From Candidatus Dojkabacteria bacterium (GTDB taxonomy: Bacteria; Patescibacteriota; Dojkabacteria; B142; OLB20), in assembly GCA_035444565.1 (NCBI GenBank), contig DAOMOX010000002.1, forward strand, positions 8,013 through 72,012: a DNA stretch of 64,000 bases. The letters are read 5' to 3'. A program made the position numbers and the translations under genes. How positions within the stretch are numbered: position 1 is the first letter of the stretch; every line of letters starts with the position of its first letter. The notes below the pieces were generated by a model. The model saw nothing but the letters and a program-made list of their open reading frames with translations, had not been told where the DNA came from and made no database searches. This document shows positions 13,516-62,576 of the stretch, one piece after another.

Positions 13516-14721
13516 TTAACCTTCTTTAGCACATGTTACAACTTCGACTAATGAGTAATGTGATTGATTACACTTTCGAAGACTTGAGTTCTTGACACAT
13601 GTGTCGAATTCAGCCTTTGTGTAATTTAAGTCACTTCTTAGTGAAATGCTATCGTATTTTCCTTCGAGATTTAGATAGGTAACACTACTTGGTACTCCAT
13701 CATTTACTTCAGGTGTTATATTTTTTCTACAGTATTTGAATTTACTGTATTCTGCTTTTGGATCATTAATATCCAATAGATTTACTCCATCATCCCATGT
13801 CTTGGTATTTCCAAGATCTTCACATACAGATGTCTGTGTTTTGGTTGCTGAACTTTGAAGATCATTGTATTTGATACTCACTGTATGATTCTCATTGTTC
13901 TGAACCTTAGGATTGAAAGCATTTCCAATTTGTGGATTTGTTTCTGTAGCTCCAGTCCAACCCCACATTGTTCTTACTGCAATAGGGTATTTCTTTGCAA
14001 CTGCACTTAAGTTTACCGTACCAAGATCAAAGCTTCTTTGGTTTGCCTTTGATGCTACGAATTCACCTGAGTACAACTTCTGTGTTGTCCATTGAGTACA
14101 AACTAATGGTTTGTTAGTTGGTGTAGGTGTCGCACTTGGTCTAGGTGTTGCGGTTGCTGTTGGTCTTGGTGTAGCTGTAGCCGTTGGAATTGTAGGTGGA
14201 GTTGCCGTAGGTCTTGGTGTAGATGTTGCAGTTGGAGTTGCAGGTGAACATTTCTGATCAAATTGTGTCTTTAGAATACTTAAGTTTGCATCATTAAATG
14301 GTCCTCTTACTCCATTCAGCTGGCAGTAGTCATTGTCTATTTCATAATGGCAATAATTCCATGCATCTGCTGAGTATTGGACATAAAAATCATTGGCTTG
14401 CGCTCCATCCCACTGTATCACTGAGCACCTTGTATCTACGGGATTTGGAACCTGCGCATTATTAAGAGTGACAGCTGGTCCAATTTCTACACGACCCAAC
14501 CCGCCAAGATAACCACCTACCGCAGTATTACAAGTCTTAAGTGGATTCTGATTCAACTCAGATCTTGTGATTCTACAATAATCAGCACTTCCATTTATTC
14601 CTAGAATTCCATTATCTAAAGCAATAGAAGTTTCGGTATTACTGGGCAATACCATTGCAGAAATCATAGTTATCACTATGAATGCCACTAATGTAGTGTA
14701 TCCTATTAAAAGGTTTTTCAT
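13516..14721 (-). CDS. Secreted/membrane-anchored protein: N-terminal signal anchor, six-Cys N-domain, Pro/Thr-rich linker and a Cys-containing C-terminal domain; paralog of the N-domain of the ORF at 57592-59040
   Basis: MKNLLIGYTTLVAFIVITMISAMVLPS is a hydrophobic N-terminus. DYCRITRSELNQNPLKTCN...DTRCSVIQWD...NYCHYEIDNDYCQLNG...FDQKCSP aligns with the 482-aa protein. The linker is TPTATSTPRPTATPPTIPTATATPRPTATATPRPSATPTPT. Confidence 0.6.
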   Translation of the reverse strand: MKNLLIGYTTLVAFIVITMISAMVLPSNTETSIALDNGILGINGSADYCRITRSELNQNPLKTCNTAVGGYLGGLGRVEIGPAVTLNNAQVPNPVDTRCSVIQWDGAQANDFYVQYSADAWNYCHYEIDNDYCQLNGVRGPFNDANLSILKTQFDQKCSPATPTATSTPRPTATPPTIPTATATPRPTATATPRPSATPTPTNKPLVCTQWTTQKLYSGEFVASKANQRSFDLGTVNLSAVAKKYPIAVRTMWGWTGATETNPQIGNAFNPKVQNNENHTVSIKYNDLQSSATKTQTSVCEDLGNTKTWDDGVNLLDINDPKAEYSKFKYCRKNITPEVNDGVPSSVTYLNLEGKYDSISLRSDLNYTKAEFDTCVKNSSLRKCNQSHYSLVEVVTCAKEG

Positions 14722-15031: not shown

Positions 15032-15060
15032 TAGAAAATTCATCTAAATTAGTAAAAGAT

Positions 15061-15141: not shown

Positions 15142-15249
15142 TACTTAGTAAAACATAATTTTCTCCAAGTTTATTATTTTTAGGTTCTCCCTCTACGCCA
15201 AGGCTTCGAGGGATTAACCAGTTCTACGCCTCATACTTCGGCTAAATCT

Positions 15250-22500: not shown

Positions 22501-25500
22501 TTCAAGATATATTCTTTCATCAGATAATATAAGTGGTGACCCGAGTGCCCATGATACACGTTCGAACAAATCACTATTTATAATTGCGTTCTTAATCTCA
22601 TTGTGTTGATCTTCATTAATACCCAAACCTTCTCTAAATTCTTCATCTCTAATTTTCTCTTGTCTCCGTCTATAAAGTGCGAAACCCCCAAATGCTGCTG
22701 TTAGTATTCCGAGAGTGGCGACACTTCCTATGATAAGTGGTTTTTTCATATCTTCTGGTATACCAGCATCCTCCAACATTGCATCGGTATCGACACCTTC
22801 TCCTGGAACAGGTTCCAATGGAGCTGTCGTTGGTTCTGGGGTTACAAATGGTTCGATTTCGGAAGTTGCGGTTTCTTTAACCTCTTCTGTGGGTTCTGGT
22901 GTAGCTGTAAATGTTGTCTCAGCAGTAGGTGACTGCTCTGTGGGAATAGATGTTGCGGTAACTGAAGCAGTCTCCTCTGGGGTTGTTACTGTTGTTGCAG
23001 TTAATTCTTCTTGGGATTGTTTTGCCTCAGCAGTCGGAGCCTGTGTTGTGTTTGTAGCTGTAGTCTGAGCAGTTGCTGAAGGAGTGACAGATGCAGTGGT
23101 TACTTCAACACGTGATTCAGATCTTGGCAATTGGTTTTGACCTTCTACATTATCTTTAATAAAATCTTTTACTGATTGTGGCAAATCTAGAACTGAGTAA
23201 GTCCCTTTTGATATTTGATTACCGTTACTTGTCCCAGCTACACTATATACTACTACTTCATCACCATAATTACTTCCGTCTGGCTTCATCAGCTTTACAA
23301 CTACTTCAGGCGAAGGACTATTATCTCTATTTACTATAATAAAACTCTCTTCAGTAACTACAAAATCATCACCTTCTTTGTAAATTACCGAACCATACTG
23401 GTCTGAAATCCTAGGATCCTCTAATGATTCGAAATCAAAAGCTGCTGTTGCAGTTGGTGCTGAAATTGTTGCTGTAGCTGTTTGAGTTAAGGTTGGTTCT
23501 GCAGTTGAAATTGGTGTTGCTTCTGGTTCAGCAGTGCTAGTTGCAGTAGGTTCGGGGGTTGATGTTACGGGAGGTGTTCCCTGAACATCTGAGTCTGATA
23601 GATTATTAAAAGTGTTGATGGTCGCTTGATCTACTTGGATATCTAATTTAGGATTTTCGTCAGTATCTTTTATACCCAATAAGTTAAATATATTTATATT
23701 TTTTTCATTTAAAATTTCTTGAAGTCTATTCAACATTCTGGGGTTTGTATATATTGCTACTACTTCTTCATAGGATTGTACTGACGTACTTGTGATAGGA
23801 TTCTCATCACCTTCATCTGTAGTATATAATATTCTCTCACCAAGTAAACTTTGTATGGTGCTATGTAATGTCATTAGAGCCACTGCAGGATCATCAGTCT
23901 CAACTACAGTGCCCTCAAAATTAAGAACTCGAATCAGATAGCCACTATCTTCTAATCCATCCCATCTTCCTCCATTTTCTCGTTCAATTACATCAAGTAA
24001 TGCATGTTGGGTAAGTTCTGAAAACGGTGCTAATCTTCCTGTTCGGAACTGCTCAGGTATATCAGAGTCATATCTATCTTCAATTCCAAGTTCTTTAAGA
24101 GCTTCGTATAAATGCTCAAACTTATAATCACCTTCTGGGAATCTTTCTATCGCAGAAAGTATAAGCCCGTTGACTAATAATTGAGAAATTTCCTCTCTAA
24201 TTATATCCATTCCCTCACCTGCGATTGTTTGGCCATCATTTACATCCTCATTAAAGTTCTGGAAGATACTGATTGTGTGAAATTTAAAACCATCCTCTGT
24301 GTAATTCGGGGGAGTTGTGGCAACTGAGCTTCTTTGTTCAATTATTTCTCGGTACTCATCGCCGATTGAGAAATTAATATTATTTGGAACAAAATCCTGA
24401 TTTCCGTTTAGATGAATAGAGTAGCCCATTTTACTTGCTATTTGTTCAACAAGATCATAGCTCACATTAAATTTTGTTTGCTGACCATTAATAGTTAAGT
24501 TTATTTCAATAGGATTTTCCTTATCTAATCTCTGGAATTCTTTAGGTTCTGGAGGAAATTCCTCCATTAATTTTTGTGCTTCTGTGGGGGTTGCACTCGC
24601 ATCTACTGTCGGAGCAAGGGTAGGTTCTTCTTCAACCGGCTCGGGAGTTGATACATTTCTAGTCGCTTCAGCTACTCGATCAAATATTCCTTTTATCAAT
24701 TCAATGTAATCCCCTTCTGGAACATCTGGGAATGCAGTGATAAATTCTTCTCTTGTTAAACTCTCGAAATTTTTATCATCTACTCTCTGATAAGAATTGT
24801 TTTCATACTTTTCAATGACTACATATGCCTCACTACCTTCACTAGGTCTTACAGTTAGTCGATATTCGGGATCTATATCATTGTCTGTATTTAAATAGAC
24901 ATAAATTCCATTATCTCCCTTTCCACTTACTTCTTTCATCATCCATTGACCTTTTTGATCACTGCCATTACCCAATGAATCTCCACCTTCGAAATTATCG
25001 AGTATATTTTTTCTATATTCCTCTTCATCCACGAAGTTGATCTCGGCTTCTTGAGCTTCGATTGTTCCTTCCGGAACAGGAGTAGGTCCTTCGTCACCAG
25101 TCTCTGGAGTGGCTGTTATAGTTCCTTCCTCTACCGCAGGTTCACTCGTAGCTGTAGGTGTGGTACTAGGTGGTGGAGACGTTGGAGTTGGTTCCGTACT
25201 GTTTGTTGTATCTCCCGTAGGTTCAGGTGTCGGATTTGTTACGGTCTCGGCATTATCACCTGTCACTTGTAGACTATCTGGAAGGTACTCCGCAATCTTT
25301 TGATTAGCCAATTCAACCATATCTCCTACAGAACCTGGCCTTTCTTCCTCATTGATTCTAAATTCAAGAATTCTTGTATCGGGAGGGATATTGTCTCCAG
25401 AAATTATTTCATAGTCAGAATTTACAGCTGTACTAATAAACAGTTGACCTTCAACATCTATTAATGCAACACCTTGATTCTTGATTTGTGTAGCGACATC

Positions 25501-28500
25501 ATCGCCAATTTCATTTAATGTGACGTATTTATCATTTGATGTTAAGAATTCATCCAAATCGATTTTTCCTTCTTCTATCAGTTTATCTGCTAAAGCCTTT
25601 AATCCCTCAATATCTTCAGGAATATCACCCGCATCGATTCCGTAGAAATGAGGTCCCCCGTGAAGGCTTCCTGTTATTCTCCCCGAGGAATCAGCATTAA
25701 TTTCGAGCGTGTAGTATGTTCTCTGTTCCTCTACACCTTCATTATTTATTTCGTTAAATGTTTGAGACCTCAATGCAACACCATGTTCAATTAGTGACTC
25801 TTCTGCCAATTTGTTTGATTGAGCAACTTCTTCAGATGTTGAATTTTCAGATCCACCAAAAATCGGAATGTTTGTCGTAACTACATCAGACCCTACTGTG
25901 AATTCTGTGTCAGGTATCTCCACAGTTGGAGAAACGATATCTTCAGCAGAATCGCTTTCATCTTCTACTCCATCTTCAACTTGTTCGTCGACAGTTTCCT
26001 CTGTAGTAACTCCTTCTCCGGTTGATTCATCTTGAGCAATTGGTCCAACTGCCCTCAATCTCATGTCTATACCAATATCTTCTGTCAATTCCACTAAAGA
26101 AAGCTCACTTACAATACTTTGAGGTCCAGCCATAACTGTGAATTCCGTTTGTTCTCCTATTACTGATCTGGTTTGATTGGAGCTTGTAGTTACTATTACG
26201 AATTCTCGTTCCTCTCCATCAACCTGAAGAGTGATAATAGGTAGTTCCCCTTCGTCTAATTCATTTAAGTAAGTTTGTATTTCTGATTGTAATGTTTGAG
26301 GCAAATCTGACAGACTTGTTGGTGCTGTTGTCTGAGTACCTGAAGTTCCTAACGTTGTAGAGTTGTCAACAACAGTAGACATTGAGACTGGTGAAATGTT
26401 TGTTCCAGAAATCGGCTCAAGTTCAGGTACGGTATCAGCGTCTATTGTGCGACCAAGAGTTATATCCACGGATGCTTGAGCATCTTTATAAATTTCATCG
26501 ATATGTTCTTGAGTCATCTTCCCATCTGAGAGATCTTCAGTTTGTTCAGCACTAAGCTCGACTAGGAAAATACGATTATGCGTACCAAGATTTGAATCAC
26601 CCGGAATAGTAACCAATACAAATTTGTTTTCTACAAAAGTAGCGTTTTCTCCCTCCTGTTCTACAACATTTAATATTCTAATACCTGAACCTGCTCCAGA
26701 ATCATTCAAAATTTCACCATCAACAACTCCGTTTAAAGATATAGAATATCCGCTATTTAAAACACCGGGTATAGAATCTTCTACTAAATTACCACCCTCA
26801 TTAATTATATATGGAGTTAAATCTTTGATATTACTTTCGGAGATGACGAGTTCAGAGAGCATACTATGTGGTTTCAAGACTAGTACATCTTGAGGATTTG
26901 GGTACCCAGAATTGTTATAGAATCTCTCGACCTGAGTTTCATCGCGGCTAATGGAGGCTACATCAAAATCTTCATTAGGTGAATTATGAGTATATACAAT
27001 ATTACCCAACATTGTTGTAAATGTCTGTGGCTCTCCAATTATGAGCTGAACACTTTGACCCGTACTACTTGGTAGGGTTAGTAACCCATCATTAATAAGC
27101 TCTTTTAGCTGATCCCCTGTTAGAGCTGATTGATAATGATTTAAGACATCATTCCATGTACTGAATGTAATTGAATTATTTGAGCTTAAGATATTATCTG
27201 TTGCATCTGCGACTGCATTGATTTGTTCATTAGTTAGACCTATCTCTTGTAACTGCTCAATACCCTCAGGAGATGGCATTTGATTGAGGATTTCATCTAC
27301 ATCTAAAGTTACTGGTGTATTTGAGGGAAACCTTGATAATTCAATTTCTTGTGTAAGTAAACCATCTTGAACAACCTTTTGTCCATTTTCTTCGGTGATA
27401 TCTGATTCATTTATCAGTCTCCACTGGTTATTCTCAAGAACAACCAATCCATATACAATACTACCCTCAGCTGTTGTATTATCCCCATCGATATCTACTT
27501 TTAAACTTAGCGTTCCATAAGGCAAACCATCTGTTTCATTGAAATATCCTTCAGATGGAATTTCTCCTGTAATAACTCTTCCTGTTTCAGGTAAGTTATC
27601 AAAAGGGAACGCTGTTTCACCATTTGATAAAACGACACTAGTTCCAATTTCATCTACATTTTCAATCTGAGTTTTAAAGTTATCACTATTAACTATATTA
27701 TGTAGTTCTGTTTTTAATTCATCAACGGGTCTTCCAATCCATTCATCACCTTCTAAAAATTGCGATGCATAAATAATATTGTCAGGAGCATTTCTCAAAT
27801 CTCCATCATATATAGCATTCTCTCCGTCGACATCAGGAACGACAGCATAGACAACCTGTACGACAAATTCATCCTGCGATGTTCGCATTGTTCTTATGAA
27901 CAAATCATCATCAGATGGCAATCTTTCTAAGTCTATATCGCTTACAAATAAATCTATCACTTTTGCGTGTTCAGAAGTACCTAAAATGACAGGTGAATGA
28001 TCTACATGATTATTTAATTCGTCAGGAACTGGGGCAAATATATTATCAACAACTTGATAGAATAGGATATCTTTTTCCAGATTTGCTCCCGCGATAGGGG
28101 TGTCATCAATTTTCCCACCAACTAATAATAAATCGTTTTCTTGATATTGGCTATGATTGACGTCACTAGGAATATAATTTGTTCGTACATTTAGTTCTCC
28201 TGTATCTGTTAAGCTATATGATCGCGCTGCAATAGTAATACTCTCTTCTTCTGGATGATTATTTAACCAATCCTTTACATCTCCATAAGTCCATCCAGCA
28301 TATTTGGATACTTCGCTCAGTCTATGTTCTAACTCTTCTTCTGGATTTTCTGTGTCAAGTACATTTATATCTCCAACAATTTGTTCAACTTGTTTATATA
28401 CAATTTCGGGCTCCACATCATGATCCACATCAAATCCAAAAGCAAGGCTTCCAGCATGTGTAGTTGCCGATTCAGGTGATTCCAGTTTATAAGTACCCGT

Positions 28501-51398: not shown

Positions 51399-54329
51399 TT
51401 AAACCTTATGTTTAGGTGAATTTATCAGTCCACACTTTTTGTATTTCAATCCAGAACCACAAGGACAAGGATCATTTCGGCCAATGACATGTTTATTCAC
51501 CTTAGTTTCTTCCCGAGATGTGTCATTTGTTTGAATATTTTTCCTAGCTGCTTGTTCTAACTCACGAAGAACTCTGTTGTTTTGAACATTAACCTTGGGA
51601 GCAGAAGCTTCCATCTCACGAGTTTCATTTGAGATTTCATCTATCTCCTCACTATTTGTTTCCATTTTCTTCTCTTCTCTTGGTTTTGCAACAGCTCGGA
51701 TTTTTAATATTCTCCTTGCGAACTGTGAGTTTATACTATTTATAAATTTCTCGAATAGTTGATATGCCTCGTTTTTGTACTCAACAAGGGGATCTCTCTG
51801 TGCATAACCGCGTAGACCAATCCCTTCTCTCAAATCCCCCATCGCATCAAGGTGATCTGTCCAAAGTTGATCCATAATTTGTAAATTTACAATCTTATAG
51901 ATTTCTGGAAGTGCCTCATCAAACTCCTTGTATTTAGTTTCTAAAAGATCATCAATAGTATCGGTCAATATTCTTTTGATTTTAGCAATTCCAACCTTTT
52001 CAAATTCAACTTCTAAGGATTTTAAGTCTTTATTTGAAAGCTTCGTTTCACTTACTTTCTCATATGACTTGATCAAATCTCGATCTACTGCTAAATCAGC
52101 AAAGTCATTTATTAATTTTATTTTGTCAATCTTGTCTTCCCTCTGTTCCAAGAAGTGTTCGTTTATAATAAACTCAACTTCTTGATTTAATAAATCCTTA
52201 ATTTTCAATTTGATGGTATCAAGTGCTTCTTTCGATTTTTCTTTATCATCCTTATTTAGTGCATCAGCAGACAATGAAAGTAAATTTAATCTACGGAGAT
52301 AGAAAATCTCTCTTTGTTGGTTAATAACATTATCATAGTCGACAACTCGCTTTCGAGTGTCAAAGTGAGCACCTTCCATTTTCTTCTGTGCAGTTTCTAT
52401 TGACCTTCCAATAATCTTTGACTCAATTGGCATGTCATCTGGTAATTTTGTCGCAGTCATCAACTTGCTAACGATTTCACCACCTTGAATACGCATTATT
52501 TCATCATCTAGTGCTGTATAGAATTGTGTAATTCCAGGATCTCCTTGTCTACCACCACGACCTCTGAGCTGATTATCAACACGTCTTGCTTCATGTCTTT
52601 GAGTACCTATTATATATAGTCCACCTAAATCAGTAACACCTTCGCCGAGTGGAATGTCGGTACCTCTACCTGCCATATTAGTTGCTACAGTGACAGCATC
52701 TTTCAGTCCTGCATTTGCTACAATAGAAGCTTCTCGTTCATGGAATTTCGCATTTAGTACTTCGTGCTCAACATTTTTCTTATCCAAGATCCCTGATAAA
52801 TATTCAGAGTCCTCAATCGAAGCAGTACCTACTAAAACAGGCTGTCCAGATTTGTGGATCTCCGTAATAGCTTCTGCAACTGCATTAAATTTCGCTTTCC
52901 TATCTTTATACACTTTATCTGTTAAATCTTCCCTGATAATTGGCTGGTTTGTAGGGATTTCATATGAGTCTAAATTATAGATTTTATAAAACTCCTCAGC
53001 TTCAGTCAGGATAGTACCAGAACCTCCGGAGAGAATTTTGTACAACTTGAAATAATTCTGGAAAGTGATGGTAGCCATAGTTTTGGACTCCCTTTTGATT
53101 TCTACACCTTCTTTTGCTTCTATAGCTTGGTGTAATCCTTCTGAATAACGTCTACCTGCAAGAACCCTACCTGTGAACTCGTCAACAATTAAGATCTCAC
53201 CATCTTTGATTAGATAATCATCATCAACTTTATACAAAACTTCAGCCTTAAGTGCGTTATCTAAATGGTGAGCAAGTCTATAATCCTCCCAAAGATTTTT
53301 AACTCCAAGTAAATTCTCAACATATTCAACACCTTCGTCAGTTAGGGTTACTGAACGTACTTTTTCGTCAACATTGTAATGTTTATCAACTTTGAGATTT
53401 TTCACCACTTTGGCAAACTTCTCATAGAGATCATTTGATGCCTCTGCTGGCGCAGATATTATAAGAGGTGTCCTTGCTTCATCAATCAAAATACTATCCG
53501 CTTCGTCAACTATACAGAAATATAGCTCCTTTTGTACTCTTTCTTCAATATCAAAGACCATATTATCTCGCAGGTAGTCAAAGCCTACTTCATTATTTGT
53601 CGCATATAATACATCTTGTTCGTAAGCCTCTTTCTTACTACACTCCATTAAATTAACACCTTTCATATCACTTAATTTTGATATGTCGAGGCTATCTCTT
53701 TCTTTTTTAGCATCTTCACCTTTAGTTGCTTTTAGCTGGTCATCAGGAACAAATTTATATGACGCTTGTGGAGTAATTACTCCGACACTGATTCCTAAAT
53801 CTGAAAAAGCATGTCCAGCGTATTCTCCATCACGCCTTGCCAAGTAGTCATTAACAGTAATTACATGACTTCCTCTTCCGGTCAAACCATAAAGTGCAGC
53901 TGGTAAATGAAAAACCTGTGTTTTACCTTCTCCTGTTCTTAATTCTGTCAGACTGTGACCTTTTGCTAAAATAGTTGCAGCTTTTAATTGAACAGGATAA
54001 TGTGGTTTACCTAATTTTCGTCTATTAATTTCTCGCAACATTGCGAAAAAATCCACGACGTTAGACTGTAGTAAATCTCGAACTTTCTTCTCTGTGGTGT
54101 CATATTTCTTGAACTCTTCGTTTGCTAGTGGCATTCTTGCCATCGGAGGGATAGTGTCGATTAATTCTTTTAATTCTGCCCTGATGACTTCGACTTGCTT
54201 ACGCATTTCTGAAATATCTTTATCCTTATACTCATCTTCTTTTGCAAGAATTTCTTCTACTAATGGTTCTACTTCTTTAATGGCTCTTTGATTGGGGTTT
54301 AGAAACCGTGAAAATATTCCTTTTATCAT
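51399..54329 (-). CDS. secA: Preprotein translocase ATPase SecA
   Basis: Walker A TGEGKTQV, DEAD-like DEADSILIDEARTPLIIS, and the C-terminal zinc-binding CPCGSGLKYKKCG. 976 aa. Confidence 0.95.
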   Translation of the reverse strand: MIKGIFSRFLNPNQRAIKEVEPLVEEILAKEDEYKDKDISEMRKQVEVIRAELKELIDTIPPMARMPLANEEFKKYDTTEKKVRDLLQSNVVDFFAMLREINRRKLGKPHYPVQLKAATILAKGHSLTELRTGEGKTQVFHLPAALYGLTGRGSHVITVNDYLARRDGEYAGHAFSDLGISVGVITPQASYKFVPDDQLKATKGEDAKKERDSLDISKLSDMKGVNLMECSKKEAYEQDVLYATNNEVGFDYLRDNMVFDIEERVQKELYFCIVDEADSILIDEARTPLIISAPAEASNDLYEKFAKVVKNLKVDKHYNVDEKVRSVTLTDEGVEYVENLLGVKNLWEDYRLAHHLDNALKAEVLYKVDDDYLIKDGEILIVDEFTGRVLAGRRYSEGLHQAIEAKEGVEIKRESKTMATITFQNYFKLYKILSGGSGTILTEAEEFYKIYNLDSYEIPTNQPIIREDLTDKVYKDRKAKFNAVAEAITEIHKSGQPVLVGTASIEDSEYLSGILDKKNVEHEVLNAKFHEREASIVANAGLKDAVTVATNMAGRGTDIPLGEGVTDLGGLYIIGTQRHEARRVDNQLRGRGGRQGDPGITQFYTALDDEIMRIQGGEIVSKLMTATKLPDDMPIESKIIGRSIETAQKKMEGAHFDTRKRVVDYDNVINQQREIFYLRRLNLLSLSADALNKDDKEKSKEALDTIKLKIKDLLNQEVEFIINEHFLEQREDKIDKIKLINDFADLAVDRDLIKSYEKVSETKLSNKDLKSLEVEFEKVGIAKIKRILTDTIDDLLETKYKEFDEALPEIYKIVNLQIMDQLWTDHLDAMGDLREGIGLRGYAQRDPLVEYKNEAYQLFEKFINSINSQFARRILKIRAVAKPREEKKMETNSEEIDEISNETREMEASAPKVNVQNNRVLRELEQAARKNIQTNDTSREETKVNKHVIGRNDPCPCGSGLKYKKCGLINSPKHKV

Positions 54330-54445
54330 GATCTTTTAGAATTGAAAAATAGTAGGTTTATATTAACATAAACACCAAATATTGATTATCGGGTTAATAG
54401 AAAAAACTCCAAATGGAGTTAAATATGGATAATTTATATTGATAA

Positions 54446-55168
54446 TTATATCTGAGTTGCGATTACAACGATTCTCTTCTCTGATGATCCAGCTGACCCA
54501 TCAGCTGTTGCGCATGAAATAACTTTTATAATATTCTCCTTTGATGGCTTGAGTGTAGACAAATCTCCTGCATTTCTGACAACAACTGATTTAACAGCGT
54601 AATTATAGACATTGCCTTTTGCATCGGAATAATGAATTGTGTCGCCCTCCTTTAATTGATCTAGGTTCCAAAATGATCGGGGATCATCTGCACCCCAAAA
54701 TCTTCTATGTCCGAGTAAGATTTTCTCACCATCACCTTCATAAGAGTTTGGGTAAAGCCAGGCGCCTTCATGAATTGCTTTTTCTCCATCAATTCCTTCT
54801 ATTACCGACGTTCTAACGTTTAATCGAGGAATTACTAATGTATTAATACCCATACTTTCCACAACTACAGTACTGGGAGTGTTTACAGCTGGTGATTCCT
54901 TATCAATCGAAGCATTATCTTCTTCATCTGTAGTAGCTGCCTTTACACTTGATGTTTCAGTAGGTATCTCAAAGTTAGAGTTTATAGTTTCTATAGTACT
55001 CTTGTGTTCGAAAGTAATTGGTTTAAGAGTTGACTCGCCTTTAACATTTTGTACTGGCTGTCTTTTTTCACTAAAAGAAAAAACAGCAATAATAACAACT
55101 AATACTAACAGTATCACTACTCCAGCAATTACAAGTTTTTTTGTTTTGTTTTTTAATAGATTTTCCAT
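54446..55168 (-). CDS. Sortase-family transpeptidase (N-terminal membrane anchor)
   Basis: N-terminal TM (LVIAGVVILLVLVVIIAVF). Catalytic-triad candidates LLGHR (His), IKVISCATADG (TLxTC-like Cys) and a C-terminal Arg (KRIVV), in the canonical order and spacing. Confidence 0.65.
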   Translation of the reverse strand: MENLLKNKTKKLVIAGVVILLVLVVIIAVFSFSEKRQPVQNVKGESTLKPITFEHKSTIETINSNFEIPTETSSVKAATTDEEDNASIDKESPAVNTPSTVVVESMGINTLVIPRLNVRTSVIEGIDGEKAIHEGAWLYPNSYEGDGEKILLGHRRFWGADDPRSFWNLDQLKEGDTIHYSDAKGNVYNYAVKSVVVRNAGDLSTLKPSKENIIKVISCATADGSAGSSEKRIVVIATQI

Positions 55169-55313
55169 ATATACATTATATCATAATAATTGAAAACTCT
55201 GCTCAAATTTAAATAGTCACTAATCTTCTCAACTTTGACTTCTGAAAGTAAAAAGTGTTAAAATAGTGATGCTCCCCATACTTTAGTTATCTATAGTTAT
55301 TATTTTCTTACTC

Positions 55314-57464
55314 ATGTCTAACACAAAGGCCAAAAGATATTTGCTTCTGTACACCTTTATAGTAGCAAGTATAATGTTTGTGCTACAAATTACTTTGGTA
55401 AGCTCACCATTCAAAACTGCAGAAGCTGCAATAGATGATCAATCATCTGGTTGGGATGAATGTAATGGATGGACAGAGCCTTCTTATAGAACAAATACTA
55501 CTATTAAAGTAGTAGATGGTAAAACTATTGGAGGTATGCTTCTATGTAGAGACAGAGCACTTAAAAGAGCTGAAAATGGAGAGTTCTACTATCCAGACAT
55601 GATTCCAGGTCTTTCCACTCCACCATCAGGTTCTCGAACAGCAACAACTCCAGGTACAGATAGTCAGTGGTACAAATGGGGAAAAACAGAGACAAAAGAA
55701 CATTTCTTAAGCGAAGGAACGGCATGTGGATTAGGACCAAGAGTTTGTTTACCAACTCCAACACCTACTAAAACACCAAGCCCAACTCCTACGATAAAGC
55801 CAAGTGCTACTCCTACTATAAAACCTAGCGCAACTCCTACTACAAAACCAAGTGCAACACCTACTACAAAGCCTAGCGCTACTCCTACTACAAAGCCTAG
55901 CGCTACTCCTACCACTAAACCAAGTGCAACTCCTACACCAGTAATTGTTCTTTGTAAATTAGGGGATAGAGTTGTTTACGATCAGAATAAAAACGGCATC
56001 CAAGAGATTTATGAACTTGGTGTTAGAAATATCAAGGTTGAACTATACAGTGAAGGAATGAATCTACTAGGGACTGAAGTAACAAATACAAATGGTTTCT
56101 ATGGATTTGATGAATTAGATTGTGATACTAATTATTATGTAAAGTTCTATAAACCTGCAGATTATATCTTCAGCGAACCATTTGTTGGAAACAACAGAGA
56201 ATTAGACAGCAATGCAAATGTTTCGACAGGATTATCTGACATGATTTATCTAACTGGAACCGATCTTTCAATAGATGCACTTATTTACAAAAAAGAAGTG
56301 GTAAATACACCAACACCAAGCATAACACCTACCACAAAGCCAAGTACAACTCCAACTACAAAACCTAGTGCAACACCTACTACTAAGCCAAGCGCTACTC
56401 CAACTACAAAACCTAGTGCAACACCTACTACTAAGCCAAGCGCTACACCTACAGTTGTTCCAAGTCCAACTCCTACAATAATACCTAGCCCAACACCTAC
56501 TACGGTACCTAGCGCTACTCCAACAACAAAGCCTAGCGCAACACCTACAACAGAACCATCTCCTACACCAGTGGTAATCCTCTGTAAAATTGGAGATAGA
56601 GTTGTTTACGACCAGAACAAAAATGGTATACAAGACATTTATGAACTAGGTGTAAAAAATATTAAAGTTGAACTATACGACGAACAAATGAACGTATTAG
56701 CTACTCAAGTTACAAATGATTATGGTTTCTACATTTTCGATGAATTAGTCTGTAATACAAACTATTACATAAAATTCTTCAAACCTGCAGACTATAAATA
56801 TAGTGAAGCTTACGTTGGAAACAACACAGAGCTAGATAGTAATGCAAATGTAGAAACAGGTTTATCCGAAAAAATAATGCTAATAGGAACAGATTTATCA
56901 ATTGATGCATTAATCTACAAAGAACAGATTATTGTCACACCTACTCCTTCAACCGTACCAGAAGTCACACCAACTCCTGGAGTAAAGGGTGAAGACACAA
57001 TATTCGGATTTAGTGTCGATAAAACCATTGTCGGAGATTACAAATACAATGTTGGTGAGCTCGTCACTTACAGAGTTACATTGGAAAATTCGGGTACAGA
57101 CATTATCAACAAAATAACAATGCGAGATGTTTACACAACAAATATGAGAGTAGAAGCTATCTACTTAGTACAAAATGGCACAAGGAGAAATGTTACTAAC
57201 CAATTCTTTGCTAACGACAGTGAAATGGAAAGTGGAAATATTTTACCTCGTGATTCACAAGACAGAACAAAGACTCTTGACATTACTGAAATCACTGGTG
57301 ATATGAATCCTGGTGAAAGTGCGACATTTGAATTTATTTTCAAAGCACACAGCAAAAACTCTCAAGTTTGTAACCAAGCATTTGCTAGTGCAAATAACAG
57401 ATCTGAGATTCCTTCTCAAAAGGTTTGTGTATCTGTAGATGCAGTTGTACCAGTAACTGATTAA
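55314..57464 (+). CDS. Modular surface protein: signal anchor, Cys-containing N-domain, two PT-repeat linkers, two SdrD-B-like (Cna-B-type) domains and a C-terminal DUF11-like conserved-repeat domain
   Basis: N-terminal hydrophobic YLLLYTFIVASIMFVLQITLVSS. Two copies of KLGDRVVYDQNKNGIQEIYELGV…NGFYGFDEL…YYVKFYKPADY (the SdrD B-like D-x-N-x-N-G motif). Linkers (TPTTKPSA)n. The C-terminal domain (…VGELVTYRVTLENSGTDIINKITMRD…VCVSVDAVVPVTD) is shared with the 482-aa paralog. Confidence 0.65.
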   Translation: MSNTKAKRYLLLYTFIVASIMFVLQITLVSSPFKTAEAAIDDQSSGWDECNGWTEPSYRTNTTIKVVDGKTIGGMLLCRDRALKRAENGEFYYPDMIPGLSTPPSGSRTATTPGTDSQWYKWGKTETKEHFLSEGTACGLGPRVCLPTPTPTKTPSPTPTIKPSATPTIKPSATPTTKPSATPTTKPSATPTTKPSATPTTKPSATPTPVIVLCKLGDRVVYDQNKNGIQEIYELGVRNIKVELYSEGMNLLGTEVTNTNGFYGFDELDCDTNYYVKFYKPADYIFSEPFVGNNRELDSNANVSTGLSDMIYLTGTDLSIDALIYKKEVVNTPTPSITPTTKPSTTPTTKPSATPTTKPSATPTTKPSATPTTKPSATPTVVPSPTPTIIPSPTPTTVPSATPTTKPSATPTTEPSPTPVVILCKIGDRVVYDQNKNGIQDIYELGVKNIKVELYDEQMNVLATQVTNDYGFYIFDELVCNTNYYIKFFKPADYKYSEAYVGNNTELDSNANVETGLSEKIMLIGTDLSIDALIYKEQIIVTPTPSTVPEVTPTPGVKGEDTIFGFSVDKTIVGDYKYNVGELVTYRVTLENSGTDIINKITMRDVYTTNMRVEAIYLVQNGTRRNVTNQFFANDSEMESGNILPRDSQDRTKTLDITEITGDMNPGESATFEFIFKAHSKNSQVCNQAFASANNRSEIPSQKVCVSVDAVVPVTD
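55755..55945 (+). repeat. Near-perfect tandem 24-nt DNA repeats encoding (T-P-T-T-K-P-S-A)n; a second block lies at about 56310-56575
   Basis: Visible iterations of actcctactacaaagcctagcgct / actcctactacaaaaccaagtgca in the sequence. Confidence 0.8.
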
Positions 57465-57483
57465 TAAAAGTCTAAGTAACTAA

Positions 57484-57511
57484 AAGGGTGAACTTTGTTC
57501 ACCCTTTTTTG
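57484..57511 (+). terminator. Rho-independent terminator after the 716-aa surface-protein gene
   Basis: aagggtgaactttgttcaccctt hairpin followed by ttttt. Confidence 0.7.
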
Positions 57512-57591
57512 TTAATATTTTCTATCACTCATACCTATGCACAATATGAGTACATGTATGATATAATGTATATATAGTTTTATAAAATATC

Positions 57592-59040
57592 ATGAAAAAT
57601 CTTTTAATTAGTTATACAACACTCATCACATTTATATGCATTACGATGATAAGTTCGCTTCTTATACCTAGTGATGCTAATAATTTTAAAGCATTGAGTG
57701 ATGAAACAAATGGTGTTTCCAGAAGCATTTATTATTGTAGAATGCTAAGATCTGATTTAAATCGAGACCCTCTTAAAGTATGTAATGAATTAATCGGAGG
57801 ATATATGGGTTATGATAAATGGGAGCCGAATTATCAACTAAAAATAGCTCAGAACACTACACTTCAATATTCACAGACTAATCCCCATGACACAAGATGT
57901 TCAGTCGTTCAATGGGATGTCTATGATCAAACCTTTGTTAGATATTCCGCGGATGCAAATAATTATTGTCATTACGAAGAGGGTAATAATCATTGTCTAA
58001 TAAACGGGACAAAGTCAGCTTTCAATTCTGCAGGATTAGATTTACTAAAACAACAATTTGATCAAAAGTGTGTTCCTACAACACCTACAGCTACACCAAA
58101 GCCAACAGCTACCGCTACTCCTAAACCAACCGCAACTCCGAAGCCAACAGCTACCGCTACTCCTAAACCAACTGCTACACCAAAACCAACAGCTACTGCT
58201 ACTCCAAAACCAACAGCTACCGCTACTCCGAAGCCAACAGCTACTGCAACACCAAAACCAACGGCTACTGCTACTCCGAAGCCAACAGCTACTGCTACTC
58301 CGAAGCCAACAGCTACTGCAACACCAAAACCAACAGCTACCGCAACTCCTGAACCAAGTGTCACTCCTAGCCCTACAGCTACAAGTACACCTGTACCAAC
58401 TGCAACAGCTACTCCAACACCTACATTTACACCTACTGTGACTATTACACCTACGCCAACTGTAACAGCTACATTAACACCTACGGTTACACCGACAGTT
58501 ACAATTACAGTTACACCAACGGTTACTGCAACACCAGTGATAACACCAACCCCACCTGTAATGGGTGATGATAGCGTGTTTGGATTCAATATAAGCAAAG
58601 AAGTTATTGGAAAACTGAACTATCAAGTTGGAGAGTTGATTACTTTTAACGTCAACTTCAAAAATACCGGTACAGAAGTGATTGAAAAACTATACATGAG
58701 AGATATCTATACAACAGATATGCGAGCGGAAAGTGTCACATTAGTTCATAACGAACTTAGAATAGATGTTACAAGTTTATTCTTTAAAGATATGAATGAT
58801 ATGGACACAGGAATGATTCTTCCAAAAAATCCTGTTGAACCACAAGAATTATTAAACTTAATTCAATTAACAGGCCCACTACAAGAAGGAGAGGAATTAA
58901 CACTTGAATTCACATTTAAAGCTGTAAGCAAAAATGATCTAGTATGTAATCAAGCATACACATCACCTAACGGACGAAAAGAGATTCCAAGCACGAAAGT
59001 ATGTGTTGAAATTGATGCAATCGTACCAGTAACGGATTGA
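57592..59040 (+). CDS. Surface protein paralog: signal anchor, six-Cys N-domain (shared with the 13516-14721 ORF), long (PTATATPK)n linker, DUF11-like C-terminal domain (shared with the 716-aa protein)
   Basis: [46 protein letters not shown]…[10 protein letters not shown]…[16 protein letters not shown]…FDQKCVP. The C-terminus [42 protein letters not shown]…[13 protein letters not shown]. Confidence 0.65.
58075..58565 (+). repeat. Tandem 15/27-nt DNA repeats (ccaacagctaccgctactccgaag…) encoding the PTATATPK linker
   Basis: Directly visible near-identical iterations across about 490 nt. They create spurious long antisense and alternate-frame ORFs. Confidence 0.8.
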
Positions 59041-59061
59041 GTTTTATAGAAAAAATTTTAA

Positions 59062-59090
59062 AAGGGTGGAGAATTCTTCACCCTTTTTTT
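59062..59090. terminator. Bidirectional rho-independent terminator shared by the convergent 482-aa gene and thpR
   Basis: aagggtggagaattcttcaccctt hairpin flanked by A-runs on one side and T-runs on the other. Confidence 0.65.
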
Positions 59091-60282: not shown

Positions 60283-61104
60283 TTATATGTGACCTAGTAT
60301 TATTATAACGAAAATAATCACAAATACTGCAAGATATTCGATAATTACCTTCAAATCTAGTGATTTTTCTTCGTAATGATTAACAACAGCGGTGAAGTAA
60401 TAGTATACGAAAGTTGTAAGTATAGTATGTGCGACTATTGAAATGTCAAAGTTCAGTAGCGCGAGGAATGAATTAAAGTATACCAACAACATTGCAAATA
60501 GCATCATTCCGCCTTGTTTATTTATTATATGGTATCTTGCAAGTGTTAAGTAACCCAGAATAATTAACACAGCGGTGTTCATTAATCCAGAGATAATATA
60601 TAACTCTCCCAACAGTGCTGTGACAACGAAAATAGAAAAAGCAAGCATAAATACACTCGCGATACTAATCACGTCATACACATTAGCTGTTTTATTTTCT
60701 AATTTATATTTATTCTCATAGTATGCCTTGATATTTAAAAACAGAATTGAGAATAGAACAAGTGAGATTAATGCAATTACCAAAGCCATATTAAGCTGTG
60801 AATTTGCAAAAACGAATAGAACAATACTCACAAACAATACAGTCGGCATTATTAAATGATGCACCCAATGAGCCTTCCTGTGCTTCTTACTTTTTGATGT
60901 TAATTCGAATTGATCATCAAATGTTGTAGCATAAAACTTAGTACTATAAAGTTCGAAAAGTAGAAGTGTGTATAAACTTATAGAGGCTGCGAAGTAACTA
61001 ATTGCACTAGAGGTATGCAAAATACTGTAAAGCGCCATTATCCCGATAGTTATCATCACTGCATAAATGTATGGACGCTTTGTATATTGGACTAATGTCT
61101 TCAT
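60283..61104 (-). CDS. Polytopic membrane protein, hypothetical
   Basis: Multiple hydrophobic helices. The start overlaps the stop of the CAP-domain gene. Confidence 0.3.
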   Translation of the reverse strand: MKTLVQYTKRPYIYAVMITIGIMALYSILHTSSAISYFAASISLYTLLLFELYSTKFYATTFDDQFELTSKSKKHRKAHWVHHLIMPTVLFVSIVLFVFANSQLNMALVIALISLVLFSILFLNIKAYYENKYKLENKTANVYDVISIASVFMLAFSIFVVTALLGELYIISGLMNTAVLIILGYLTLARYHIINKQGGMMLFAMLLVYFNSFLALLNFDISIVAHTILTTFVYYYFTAVVNHYEEKSLDLKVIIEYLAVFVIIFVIIILGHI

Positions 61105-62576
61105 TAGATTATTGATCCTCCGAATCCTCCCATAAATACAACTAAAATAAGAATTATCATCGCTGAGAGGTGTAGATGTGATTTACTTCGTTTGACACCG
61201 GTAAGCCCCGATCTGTGGATTACATAGAAATCGAACATAAACAATGCAAATAGTATCATTATAAATGCAAAATTGACCTGTGATTGAATACCCCCAGCAT
61301 TAATTGAGCTCAAAAGTGACCCCGAAATAATTGTTCGAATGTCATTACCTTCATAGTCTTGAGCTAAAAAAGAATTATGCTCAAATTGTCCTAGAATCTC
61401 ATTACTTGGCATTTCTAAAACAGTCTGATTTCCTGCAGAATCTTCAGCGGTAATACCTAACACGACCTCACCTTCTAATAATTTTTTAGATAATTGGATT
61501 TCCCATGAACCGTCTTCACTTTTTATAAACAAATCGCTAATTAGATTTGTAGAGACCTTTATTGTATCGTCAGCACTATATATTTTGAATTTAATCATTT
61601 CATCCTCACCTTCTCCAAGATAACTAATTTCCATCTTTTCTTGATCAATCTCTGGTGCAATAGTATCTATTGTAAAGTTCACTACAGGGGATTCATTTAC
61701 CTGTTTATCGTTTATATAACTAACGGCTTTAAGAGTTTTTGCTCCATCCTCTAGAGCTGATGGTCTGAAGCTAAAATTTTCACCTTTCGAATCAACTCTA
61801 CCAACATTAATTTCATTTATAAATATATCTATTACGCTAATGTCAGGTTTAGTACCTTTTATTTCTGGCTGATTGGTATTTAGAACGGCTCCAATTTGTG
61901 GGTCTGTGATATTTGTTCCTGGAATACTTGTAGGAACTACAGTAGGTACAGCTGTTGGTGCTGGTTTGTTTGTGGGTGTTACTGTCTTTGTTGTCACCTG
62001 AGTTACTGGTTTGGCAGTGGGAGCAGGTGCAGTAACTTTTTGTTTAGAACCAAAATGAACAACAACAATTGTATTATTTGGATTTCCTTGATAACTACCA
62101 TAAGCAAATCCGATACCTATTTCTGTGAAATTCCCACTCAATACATTTGCCCTGTGAGTAGGACTGTTCATCCAGGCATTCATTAAAGTACTACTATTCG
62201 TGAAACCCTCCCCAAGATTCTCCCCTGCATATATGTACTCATAACCAGCATTCAAGATAAAACTCCACGGAGATGTTCCAGGAGGACAATAATGATCCCA
62301 ACAGTCAGATGATAACATTGCTTGCGCTTTGTTGGTTGCTGAAGTAACTAATTGGTTGTTGACTGTGAGACCTCCAAGACCATTTGCAGCTCGATTAGAA
62401 TTGTGAAGGCTGTATAAGGTCCCTGCATCTACTGCTGCTTGTACTGTGCTCAATCCTAGTTGACCAACAACAACATTGAAAAGGAAAATAACCAATACAT
62501 AGATAACCAATACAGATCTATGCAAAAGGTATGGAGTGTAGTTGTTTTGAGAGGTTGGCAGTAAAAATCTTCTCAT
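61104..62576 (-). CDS. Secreted CAP/SCP/PR-1-like domain protein with a Pro/Thr linker, an Ig-like region and a C-terminal TM anchor
   Basis: N-terminal signal. CAP-domain motifs HNSNRAANGL, YAGENLGEGF, WMNSPTHRANVL. PT linker TAPAPTAKPVTQVTTKTVTPTNKPAPTAVPTVVP. C-terminal hydrophobic helix. Confidence 0.65.
   Translation of the reverse strand: MRRFLLPTSQNNYTPYLLHRSVLVIYVLVIFLFNVVVGQLGLSTVQAAVDAGTLYSLHNSNRAANGLGGLTVNNQLVTSATNKAQAMLSSDCWDHYCPPGTSPWSFILNAGYEYIYAGENLGEGFTNSSTLMNAWMNSPTHRANVLSGNFTEIGIGFAYGSYQGNPNNTIVVVHFGSKQKVTAPAPTAKPVTQVTTKTVTPTNKPAPTAVPTVVPTSIPGTNITDPQIGAVLNTNQPEIKGTKPDISVIDIFINEINVGRVDSKGENFSFRPSALEDGAKTLKAVSYINDKQVNESPVVNFTIDTIAPEIDQEKMEISYLGEGEDEMIKFKIYSADDTIKVSTNLISDLFIKSEDGSWEIQLSKKLLEGEVVLGITAEDSAGNQTVLEMPSNEILGQFEHNSFLAQDYEGNDIRTIISGSLLSSINAGGIQSQVNFAFIMILFALFMFDFYVIHRSGLTGVKRSKSHLHLSAMIILILVVFMGGFGGSII

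What the first reader, a model, noticed from the sequence alone, without database searches (positions are those of the whole stretch)
55314..59040. Mix-and-match family of PT-repeat surface proteins (three members in the window, including 13516-14721) beside a sortase but without LPXTG signals
The 482-aa protein shares its six-Cys N-domain and near-identical signal anchor with the 401-aa protein on the opposite strand 43 kb away. It shares its DUF11-like C-domain with the 716-aa neighbour. The 716-aa protein also has two SdrD-B-like domains. The linkers are encoded by near-perfect DNA repeats. The domain shuffling and repeat-length plasticity suggest a diversifying adhesin family. None ends in LPXTG plus a hydrophobic tail, so the adjacent sortase has no obvious substrate in the window. 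Only an internal LPETG occurs, in the 3726-aa giant protein, probably by coincidence.
Basis: partly seen in the sequence, partly recalled or inferred. Interest (0 to 1): 0.5.

Follow-up and report, generated by a model that had tools for sequence, protein, structure and literature searches.

The report
Modular surface adhesins ending in VPVTD
An uncultured Dojkabacteria (CPR) bacterium encodes mix-and-match stalked surface proteins whose shared end domain always stops at the same LPXTG-like residues (VPVTD) beside an unusual sortase gene. This may be a new, tail-less way of fastening proteins to a cell surface, but it is not proven.

Summary
Three secreted proteins (716, 482 and 401 aa) share modules at about 50% identity (E 1e-57 to 1e-59). 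The 716-aa protein has two SdrD_B domains. The shared C-domain is a divergent CLIPPER (DUF11) Ig-like domain with the Lys/Asp/Asn isopeptide triad conserved.

Related metagenomic loci show real mix-and-match at the same chromosomal site: 0, 1 or 2 SdrD_B modules, swapped head domains, and PT-linker indels between otherwise identical genes. One correction: the linker repeats are perfect as peptides but only about 65-90% identical as DNA.

Both sortase-adjacent proteins end exactly in VPVTD-COOH. The terminal Thr-Asp, with at most one more residue after it, is invariant even in homologues of 25-34% identity. It is encoded by varied synonymous codons and lies outside the predicted fold.

The same sortase subfamily (His/Cys/Arg intact, fitting no class A-F model) flanks such proteins in every locus that extends far enough. 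This includes a rearranged locus with two sortases upstream of a 1664-aa CLIPPER protein ending VPDTDK.

My best reading (about 0.4) is that these are fibrillar adhesins carrying a tail-less sortase signal. No hydrophobic or charged tail exists, so membership of the canonical substrate class fails.

The parts
54446..55168 (-). Membrane-anchored sortase (240 aa) of an unclassified, CPR-type subfamily. It is transcribed divergently from the 716-aa gene and lies directly upstream of secA.
   Evidence: Pfam Sortase 64.8 bits against a cut-off of 26.6. Every NCBIfam class A-F/GN model scores 28-40 bits against cut-offs of 140-166. The best PDB sortase reaches only E 5e-4. His154/Cys219/Arg232 are invariant in 29 of 29 homologues.
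51399..54329 (-). secA (976 aa). This is context: sortase-secA adjacency is conserved in all related loci.
55235..55264 (+). Promoter-like site (TTGACT-18-TAAAAT with an extended TG) in the 145-nt divergent intergenic region upstream of the 716-aa gene.
   Evidence: Consensus scan only.
55314..57464 (+). Gene for the 716-aa modular surface protein.
55314..55427 (+). 716: N-terminal signal or anchor segment carrying the LLLYT motif, with a possible AEA|A cleavage site.
   Evidence: Read from the sequence. The motif is shared across the family.
55428..55751 (+). 716: four-Cys head domain (Cys 50, 78, 138, 145) with no known family.
55734..55946 (+). 716: PT linker 1, built from [IT]KPSATPT units of 24 nt.
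55947..56303 (+). 716: SdrD_B domain 1.
   Evidence: Pfam PF17210, two stretches, E 4.8e-49.
56298..56579 (+). 716: PT linker 2.
56580..56933 (+). 716: SdrD_B domain 2. It is a lineage-specific duplicate of the linker-plus-SdrD_B module, with 149 identical residues out of 195 aligned.
   Evidence: The closest relative, L014, has only one copy.
56982..57440 (+). 716: C-terminal CLIPPER/DUF11-like Ig domain with predicted isopeptide triad K570/D605/N687 and Cys pair 686/705.
57441..57461 (+). 716: C-terminal tail AVVPVTD, followed by TAA TAA.
57482..57508 (+). Intrinsic terminator-like hairpin after the 716-aa gene.
57592..59040 (+). Gene for the 482-aa modular surface protein.
57592..57678 (+). 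482: signal or anchor segment ([10 protein letters not shown]...), about 70% identical to that of the 401-aa protein.
57679..58071 (+). 482: six-Cys head domain.
   Evidence: The AF2 model is poor (pLDDT 57) and there is no PDB relative.
58063..58566 (+). 482: PT linker of 168 aa, built from PKPTATAT units.
58567..59016 (+). 482: CLIPPER/DUF11-like domain with triad K336/D371/N453 and Cys pair 452/471.
59017..59037 (+). 482: C-terminal tail AIVPVTD followed by TGA. It is predicted to be coil outside the beta-sandwich.
59060..59087 (+). Terminator-like hairpin after the 482-aa gene.
13516..14721 (-). Gene for the 401-aa protein. It has the same signal and six-Cys head (14242-14721), a short PT linker (14104-14241) and an unrelated six-Cys C-domain (13519-14103). 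It has no TD terminus.
   Evidence: L016 holds an orthologue next to mutS.

Best explanation
The 716-aa and 482-aa proteins are Sec-exported, fibrillar-adhesin-like surface proteins of a Candidatus Dojkabacteria (CPR/Patescibacteria) bacterium.

They are built on one plan. First comes a family-specific N-terminal signal segment with the motif L-[LIV]-x-Y-T. Next is an exchangeable Cys-rich head, the likely binding end. Then comes a stalk of Pro/Thr repeats, with or without SdrD_B spacer domains. Last is a constant C-terminal CLIPPER (DUF11) Ig-like domain, probably locked by a Lys-Asn isopeptide bond and a disulfide.

The constant module ends in an exposed tail, [VI]P[VI]TD-COOH. I propose this is a tail-less sorting signal for the adjacent sortase. 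The enzyme would cut after Thr, release the terminal Asp (or Asp plus one residue), and join the Thr carboxyl to a cell-envelope amine or to another subunit. That would leave the head displayed at the end of the stalk.

What is shown: the architecture, the homologies, the fold, conservation of the terminus, conservation of the gene neighbourhood, and module gain, loss and swapping between genomes. What is inferred: export, the isopeptide bond, and every step involving the sortase.

The 401-aa protein reuses the signal and head on a different C-domain and is not a candidate substrate.
For: Architecture and homology.

C-domain fold:
- The AF2 model is confident (pLDDT 88.9, pTM 0.81). The last strand ends at ...VCVEID. 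The tail AIVPVTD is coil, and its final block has mean pLDDT 62.
- The CLIPPER triad is conserved. The equivalents of K715/D748/N806 of 9IFR (PMC12617251) are K 97%, D 98% and N 100% in profile matches.

The terminus:
- Across 11 sequences reaching down to 25-34% identity, only 7 columns are invariant. Two of them are the terminal T and D.
- Every protein stops at D or one residue later: VPVTD, IPITD, IPVTDK, IPPTDR, VPDTDK, LNTDM, LNTDF.
- Eighteen genes use 3 Thr codons, 2 Asp codons and 3 Pro codons, with no amino-acid replacement at P, T or D.
- The TD is not a leftover inter-repeat linker. In 1296 DUF11 repeat junctions the equivalent D is only 38% conserved and T does not appear among the five commonest residues there (the fifth stands at 3%).
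- The stop is real: TAA TAA followed by a terminator.

Neighbourhood:
- The sortase lies next to a TD-ending gene in the window and in L002, L003/4, L005/6, L009, L014, L015, L017 and L021, with sortase identity falling to 50%.
- In L021 only one adhesin gene remains, and it is the sortase-adjacent one.
- In the rearranged locus L023, two sortases of the same subfamily (32-38% identity, E 1e-30 and 2e-33) lie directly upstream of a 1664-aa multi-CLIPPER protein ending VPDTDK.
- No canonical sorting signal was found in 274 kb of fetched related sequence.

Background:
- The residue after the cleaved Thr is not fixed as Gly in all sortase signals. The L. plantarum signal is LPQTXE (PMC3619620).
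- Sortases are widespread in CPR, and the held paper on this does not address their substrates (PMC6744442).
Against: - Two of the three defining parts of a cell-wall sorting signal, the hydrophobic segment and the positively charged tail, are absent (definition in PMC3619620). I know of no sortase substrate that lacks them.
- From my own knowledge of sortagging practice, not tested here: S. aureus SrtA works poorly when the residue after Thr carries a free carboxylate.
- Distant homologues have LNTDM, LNTDF or ISTDI, without the Pro.
- P0107 has an IPDTD at an internal domain end. The motif can therefore occur where it cannot be a terminal signal.
- Most adjacency evidence comes from one syntenic clade. 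Even L023 keeps the sortase near secA, so the contexts are not fully independent.
- Contig ends prevented a test at L012 and L013. The L011 fragment was inconclusive.
- Only a fraction of any genome was seen, so canonical substrates may exist elsewhere.
Confidence: 0.4

Rival explanations
1. These are the same modular adhesins, but the sortase is unrelated to them. The invariant Thr-Asp terminus would serve another purpose, such as capping the CLIPPER domain, binding a metal, or contacting an envelope or S-layer partner. The proteins would be held by an uncleaved N-terminal anchor or non-covalently. The sortase would be a housekeeping enzyme placed next to secA, acting on canonical substrates elsewhere in the genome.
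For: - There is no hydrophobic or charged tail.
- Sortase-secA adjacency is conserved everywhere, so the sortase's position may be set by secA.
- The N-terminal hydrophobic segments are long (about 20-23 residues) and unusually conserved, which fits a retained anchor.
- An internal IPDTD occurs in P0107.
- The tail's pLDDT of 62 is low but not negligible.
Against: - The tail is predicted to lie outside the fold.
- DUF11 repeat junctions do not conserve TD.
- Adjacency persists after rearrangement and after sortase duplication in L023, and after loss of the second adhesin in L021.
- No canonical substrate was seen in any fetched sequence.
Confidence: 0.33
2. The locus is a minimal sortase-assembled pilus island. 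The sortase would join the Thr of one subunit's xPxTD to a Lys of the next, for example the invariant Lys of the FKA motif in the CLIPPER domain. This would build a covalent fibre from the 716-aa and 482-aa subunits.
For: - The gene arrangement (a sortase plus two genes with pilin-like Ig domains) resembles Gram-positive pilus islets.
- Lys127 of the C-domain is invariant in the 10-sequence alignment.
Against: - There is no YPK pilin motif.
- The Ig-fold matches are generic to CnaA-like domains.
- The FKA Lys is not conserved in distant CLIPPER repeats.
- In L021 a single gene suffices.
- Long PT linkers and large heads are atypical of shaft pilins.
Confidence: 0.1
3. The proteins are released or only loosely associated secreted proteins, for example host-cell-binding or matrix proteins. 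The terminus would be a recognition tag for a protease or a partner protein. Alternatively the exposed tail would act as a donor strand or a SpyTag-like reactive Asp that couples without any sortase.
For: - Cleavable-looking signal peptidase sites are present (AEA|A in the 716 protein), and no anchor of a known type is present.
- CPR bacteria are known to use donor-strand exchange pili (bioRxiv 10.64898/2026.03.03.709456).
Against: - No Pam-type components were detected. The only hit is a 15-bit PamR match on another protein.
- The architecture of head, stalk and constant C-module is that of anchored fibrillar adhesins.
- Conserved sortase adjacency is left unexplained.
Confidence: 0.12

Closest known systems
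Sortase-anchored fibrillar adhesins / MSCRAMMs of Gram-positive bacteria (for example SdrD)
   Same: They share an N-terminal signal, a distal binding head, a stalk containing SdrD B-type domains and Pro-rich repeats, Ig-like isopeptide-type domains, and a sortase gene nearby.
   Different: There is no LPXTG followed by a hydrophobic segment and charged tail. The proteins end at VPVTD-COOH. The heads are orphan Cys-rich domains. The sortase fits none of classes A-F. The organism is a CPR bacterium.
CLIPPER (DUF11, PF01345) / CLIPPER_2 (DUF7507) isopeptide domains of fibrillar adhesins (Costa et al. 2025, PMC12617251; PDB 9IFR)
   Different: There is a single, always C-terminal copy rather than a tandem stalk array. 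It scores below Pfam's cut-off (23.0 against 24.6 bits; the 482 protein has no hit). It carries an insertion of about 25 residues and an invariant TD terminus that ordinary repeats lack.
Variant sortase signals such as LPQTXE of Lactiplantibacillus plantarum (PMC3619620). From my own knowledge, also NPQTN (class B) and LAXTG (class E).
   Same: The pentapeptide has the form hydrophobic-P-x-T-x, with a non-Gly residue after Thr.
   Different: All known variants keep the membrane-spanning tail. Here nothing, or a single residue, follows.
Gram-positive pilus islets (SpaA, RrgB, BcpA with class C sortases)
   Same: A sortase gene sits next to two genes encoding pilin-like Ig domains.
   Different: There is no pilin motif or E-box. 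The linkers and heads are large. The sortase is not class C.
Pam pili of CPR bacteria (donor-strand exchange; bioRxiv 10.64898/2026.03.03.709456)
   Same: Both are CPR-specific surface filaments or adhesins built from Ig-like folds and exported by Sec.
   Different: No pam chaperone or pilin homologues were found here. The Pam mechanism is sortase-independent.

Membership tests
Sortase (PF04203, peptidase C60) | Sortase domain scoring above Pfam's gathering score | tested here: met
   64.8 bits against 26.6.
Sortase (PF04203, peptidase C60) | Catalytic His, Cys and Arg | tested here: met
   H154, C219 and R232 are invariant in 29 of 29 aligned homologues. The motif is [VI]ISC[SA]T rather than TLxTC.
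Sortase classes A-F and GN (NCBIfam) | Score above a class model's cut-off | tested here: not met
   The best is class D (LPxTATN type) at 40.5 bits against 140. Class C scores 39.3 against 160, class E 33 against 160 and class F 28.6 against 166.
Canonical sortase substrate (cell-wall sorting signal) | N-terminal Sec signal peptide | tested here: inconclusive
   A basic N-region, a hydrophobic segment of 20-23 residues and plausible A-x-A sites are visible in the sequence. No signal-peptide predictor was available, so cleavage versus anchoring is unresolved.
Canonical sortase substrate (cell-wall sorting signal) | LPXTG-type pentapeptide near the C-terminus | tested here: inconclusive
   VPVTD matches hydrophobic-P-x-T-x but not LPXTG. 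Distant homologues have LNTD or ISTD.
Canonical sortase substrate (cell-wall sorting signal) | Hydrophobic membrane-spanning segment after the motif | tested here: not met
   The protein ends at D, followed by a stop codon and a terminator.
Canonical sortase substrate (cell-wall sorting signal) | Positively charged C-terminal tail | tested here: not met
   Absent. A few distant homologues have a single K or R after TD.
Canonical sortase substrate (cell-wall sorting signal) | Cleavage after Thr and transpeptidation by the sortase | not testable with these tools
   This needs biochemistry or proteomics.
CLIPPER / DUF11 (PF01345) | Pfam gathering score | tested here: not met
   The 716 protein scores 23.0 bits against 24.6. 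The 482 protein has only a weak DUF7619 hit, E 0.021.
CLIPPER / DUF11 (PF01345) | Homology to bona fide DUF11/DUF7507 repeats | tested here: met
   The C-domain profile gives 498 hits at E<=1e-3. About 1300 repeats match in 139 proteins. The four giant hits I sampled (P0037, P0038, P0048, P0057) score 153-1472 bits on PF01345 or PF24346, and the TD-ending P0055 scores 87 and 90 bits.
CLIPPER / DUF11 (PF01345) | CnaA-like Ig fold | tested here: met
CLIPPER / DUF11 (PF01345) | Lys-Asp-Asn isopeptide triad present | tested here: met
   The triad is K336/D371/N453 in the 482 protein and K570/D605/N687 in the 716 protein. The same profile columns are 97%, 98% and 100% conserved in distant repeats. 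Correspondence to K715/D748/N806 of 9IFR rests on position and spacing, not on a direct alignment.
CLIPPER / DUF11 (PF01345) | Isopeptide bond actually formed | not testable with these tools
   This needs mass spectrometry or a crystal structure.
SdrD_B (PF17210) | Pfam gathering score | tested here: met
   165.7 bits against 29.7, in two stretches.
Gram-positive sortase-assembled pilin | Pilin motif (YPK) | tested here: not met
   Neither protein contains YPK. The E-box was not searched for.

The most novel reading that the evidence does not exclude
A CPR-specific sortase subfamily recognises a minimal, tail-less signal, [LIV]-[PN]-x-T-D followed by at most one residue, at the free C-terminus of a dedicated CLIPPER anchor domain. 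It is paired with a family-specific L-L-x-Y-T signal segment. If so, many CPR sortases that have no recognisable LPXTG substrates would in fact have substrates that current sorting-signal predictors cannot see.
Probability: 0.35. Interest if true: 0.75.

Novelty: new variant of a known kind. Interest (0 to 1): 0.52.

Why it matters
Sortases are reported in more than half of CPR genomes (PMC6744442). The CPR papers I found and read do not say what they attach, and nothing is known about how these tiny epibiotic bacteria fasten their adhesins.

A conserved, tail-less xPxTD terminus beside a distinct sortase subfamily gives a concrete hypothesis that a short peptide assay could test. If true, it would widen the definition of a sortase signal. 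It would explain apparently substrate-less sortases. It would also offer a very short ligation tag for protein engineering.

Even if the sortase link fails, the locus is a clear natural example of adhesin evolution by head swapping, spacer-domain duplication and repeat-number change on a constant anchoring module.

Tried and rejected
1. Word-indexed protein searches were nearly blind to this family. The C-domain returned one hit. The six-Cys head alignment returned nothing, not even the window's own proteins, which are in the collection. I treat this as a tool miss, not as evidence of absence. The exhaustive HMMER search rescued the C-domain.

2. The AF2 model of the six-Cys head was poor (4-sequence alignment, pLDDT 57), so I ran no fold search on it. 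PDB sequence searches for the head and for the 401-aa C-domain found nothing.

3. The afdb50 fold library was unavailable. The metagenome scan failed with the diverse alignment and returned only 3 close loci with the narrower one.

4. Stop-codon read-through into a hidden hydrophobic tail is rejected. The 716 gene ends TAA TAA followed by a terminator. In-frame translation downstream of both genes meets further stop codons within three codons.

5. The idea that TD is a vestige of the DUF11 inter-repeat linker ([AP]-D-L-x-[LVI]-x-K) was tested and is insufficient. D is only 38% conserved there and T is not among the five commonest residues.

6. Membership of the Pam pilus system is rejected. 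The only hit is a 15-bit PamR match on the CAP-domain protein, and that system is sortase-independent.

7. The partial gene upstream in L011 could be a sortase N-terminus, but the evidence is inconclusive (E 0.056 by BLASTP; 7 bits against the sortase profile).

8. The internal LPETG of the 3726-aa ORF lies 2,666 residues from the C-terminus and is not a sorting signal. The GATase_3 protein ending in LNTD is cytoplasmic, so that ending is chance.

9. A direct profile match to the 9IFR sequence was not obtained. The link to CLIPPER rests on fold and on intermediate sequences.

Full report
**1. Source and context**

The window has about 36% G+C. The same locus occurs in the MAG GCA_035445885.1. 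The closest named genome is a Candidatus Dojkabacteria MAG, whose six-Cys head domain is 93% identical. The organism is therefore an uncultured CPR/Patescibacteria bacterium. At least one related contig comes from an activated-sludge metagenome.

**2. Checking the observation**

- The 482 and 401 proteins share the N-terminal 216 residues at 50% identity, E 3e-57. Six Cys align between them.
- The 482 and 716 proteins share the last 178 residues at 50% identity, E 1e-59.
- The 716-aa protein has two SdrD_B domains at 165.7 bits. Its DUF11 match of 23.0 bits falls just below the 24.6 cut-off.
- The sortase is a clear PF04203 member.
- No window ORF has an LPXTG-like motif followed by a hydrophobic tail. 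The lone LPETG is internal, at residue 1060 of the 3726-aa ORF.

One detail is overstated. The linkers are perfect 8-residue peptide repeats ([16 protein letters not shown]), but the 24-nt DNA units differ at synonymous sites. TRF gives 63-93% matches, and mean pairwise unit identity is 0.64-0.88.

**3. What the shared C-domain is**

An exhaustive HMMER search with a three-sequence profile gave 498 hits. Most were giant proteins matched up to 39 times each. The four giant hits I sampled are strong Pfam DUF11/DUF7507 arrays.

DUF11 was renamed CLIPPER in 2025. It was shown to be a CnaA-like domain with a Lys-Asn isopeptide bond catalysed by an Asp (PMC12617251). The corresponding profile columns are conserved at 97% (K), 98% (D) and 100% (N) in distant repeats. 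In the window they are K336/D371/N453 in the 482 protein and K570/D605/N687 in the 716 protein, next to a conserved Cys pair.

The domain is a divergent, single-copy CLIPPER domain. Formation of the bond itself is inferred, not shown.

**4. Mix-and-match, tested on related loci**

Sortase homologues of 44-92% identity and domain homologues led to syntenic loci. The conserved gene order is secA, sortase, then divergently adhesin 1, adhesin 2, LigT, HPF, a 273-aa membrane protein and a CAP-domain protein.

At this one site:

- Adhesin 1 has 0 (L002, L015, L021), 1 (L009, L014, P0030) or 2 (window, L003-L006) SdrD_B modules.
- The window's two linker-plus-SdrD_B modules share 149 identical residues out of 195 aligned. 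The closest relative has only one copy.
- Adhesin 2 is missing in L021.
- In L009, adhesin 2 keeps the signal, PT stalk and C-domain but has an unrelated, non-Cys head.
- P0034 carries an extra middle domain. P0033 joins a 401-type head to the TD-ending C-domain.
- Near-identical strains differ only in PT copy number. L003 and L017 have a 100% identical gene 1, and their gene 2 differs only by a 32-aa deletion. L003 and L004 differ by a 16-aa insertion plus 5 substitutions.

Short-read assembly can miscount repeats, so the copy-number differences need long-read confirmation.

**5.

Both sortase-adjacent proteins end in VPVTD, which has the form hydrophobic-P-x-T-x like LPXTG.

- Every orthologue ends [VI]P[VI]TD.
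- Far more distant homologues end IPVTDK, IPPTDR, VPDTDK, LNTDM, LNTDF or ISTDI.
- In an 11-sequence alignment reaching 25-34% identity, only seven columns are invariant: Gly, the two Cys, two Asn, and the terminal Thr and Asp.
- Eighteen genes use three Thr codons, both Asp codons and three Pro codons, with no replacement at P, T or D. The stop follows at once or after one residue.
- In the AF2 model the last strand ends at ...[13 protein letters not shown] is a lower-confidence coil outside the sandwich.
- The TD is not simply the start of a lost next repeat. At 1296 DUF11 repeat junctions the equivalent Asp is 38% conserved and Thr is not among the five commonest residues.
- Read-through is excluded.

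**6. The sortase**

His154, Cys219 and Arg232 are invariant in 29 homologues. The protein scores 28-40 bits on NCBIfam class models whose cut-offs are 140-166. It matches solved sortases only at E about 5e-4. It therefore belongs to an undescribed subfamily.

It always sits upstream of secA. In locus L023, two sortases of this subfamily (32-38% identity, E 1e-30 and 2e-33) lie directly upstream of P0055. P0055 is a 1664-aa multi-CLIPPER protein ending VPDTDK, and secA follows it. A Cys-rich-head gene lies divergently upstream of the sortases.

So the adhesin-sortase association survives gene-order change, sortase duplication and a complete change of adhesin architecture. The contexts are not fully independent, because secA stays nearby. 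No canonical sorting signal occurs in the 274 kb of related sequence fetched, much of which is redundant.

**7. Interpretation**

The architecture is a conserved signal, a variable head, a PT/SdrD_B stalk and a constant C-terminal module. That is the plan of a fibrillar adhesin whose constant end faces the cell.

My preferred mechanism (confidence about 0.4) is that xPxTD-COOH is a tail-less signal for the adjacent sortase. The main objections are:

- The hydrophobic and charged parts that define sorting signals are completely absent (PMC3619620).
- Some distant members lack the Pro.
- One IPDTD is internal, in P0107.

The chief rival (about 0.33) is that the terminus has another role and the sortase serves unseen canonical substrates. 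A pilus-type polymerisation and a sortase-free role are less likely. The 401-aa protein shares only the signal and head and has no TD terminus.

**8. Novelty**

Modular PT-repeat adhesins, CLIPPER domains and CPR sortases are each known. I did not find the following described in the papers and profile libraries searched: a dedicated terminal CLIPPER domain with an invariant tail-less LPXTG-like end, a shared L-L-x-Y-T signal segment, and a distinct sortase subfamily, all occurring together. I rate it a new variant of a known kind. It has moderate interest as it stands and would be of high interest if the sortase link were demonstrated.

Noticed in passing
window 55314-55427, 57592-57678, 14620-14721; also P0055, P0105, P0107: The N-terminal hydrophobic segments of otherwise unrelated family members begin with a shared motif L-[LIV]-x-Y-T (LLLYT, LISYT, LIGYT, LLVYT, LVIYT, LVLYT). 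This may be a family-specific signal-peptide class, comparable in idea to YSIRK signals of Gram-positive surface proteins.
   Followed up: partly
window 14873-15059: Two partial tandem copies (93-nt period, 85% matches) of the 5' half of the adjacent tRNA-Leu gene (15060-15142), each followed by a different GC-rich stretch. Neither ARAGORN nor Rfam calls them.
   Followed up: no
window 19591-30771 (-) and 15297-19541 (-): Adjacent ORFs of 3726 aa and 1414 aa have no Pfam match at all. The larger carries the only LPETG in the window, at internal residue 1060.
   Followed up: partly
window 2733-7037 (-): A 1434-aa ribonucleotide reductase has its barrel domain matched in two stretches and also has a TSCPD domain. 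Its length suggests an insertion, possibly an intein.
   Followed up: no
window 54329-54446 and all related loci: The sortase gene lies immediately upstream of secA on the same strand in every related locus, down to 47% sortase identity (L020). L023, the rearranged and more distant locus (32-38%), is the exception: the 1664-aa adhesin gene sits between the sortases and secA. A terminator-like hairpin lies between the two genes in the window.
   Followed up: partly
window 61104-62576 (-) and 60283-61104 (-): A CAP/YkwD-domain protein with Big_13 repeats and C-terminal membrane segments, and a 273-aa multi-pass membrane protein with no family, are conserved together in synteny with the adhesin locus.
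   Followed up: no
window 7-744 (+): A GATase_3 (CobB/CobQ-like, GatD-like) protein happens to end in ...GILNTD. It has no signal peptide, so this is a chance resemblance to the TD terminus.
   Followed up: yes
L009 4681-6222 (-): The orthologue of the 482-aa gene carries a completely different head of about 200 residues, not Cys-rich, behind the same signal segment. The function of this head is unknown.
   Followed up: partly
L011 416-1051 (+): A minimal 211-aa family member consists of only a membrane or signal segment plus one CLIPPER-like domain ending SLNTDF. It sits just upstream of the 933-aa protein ending IPVTDK.
   Followed up: partly
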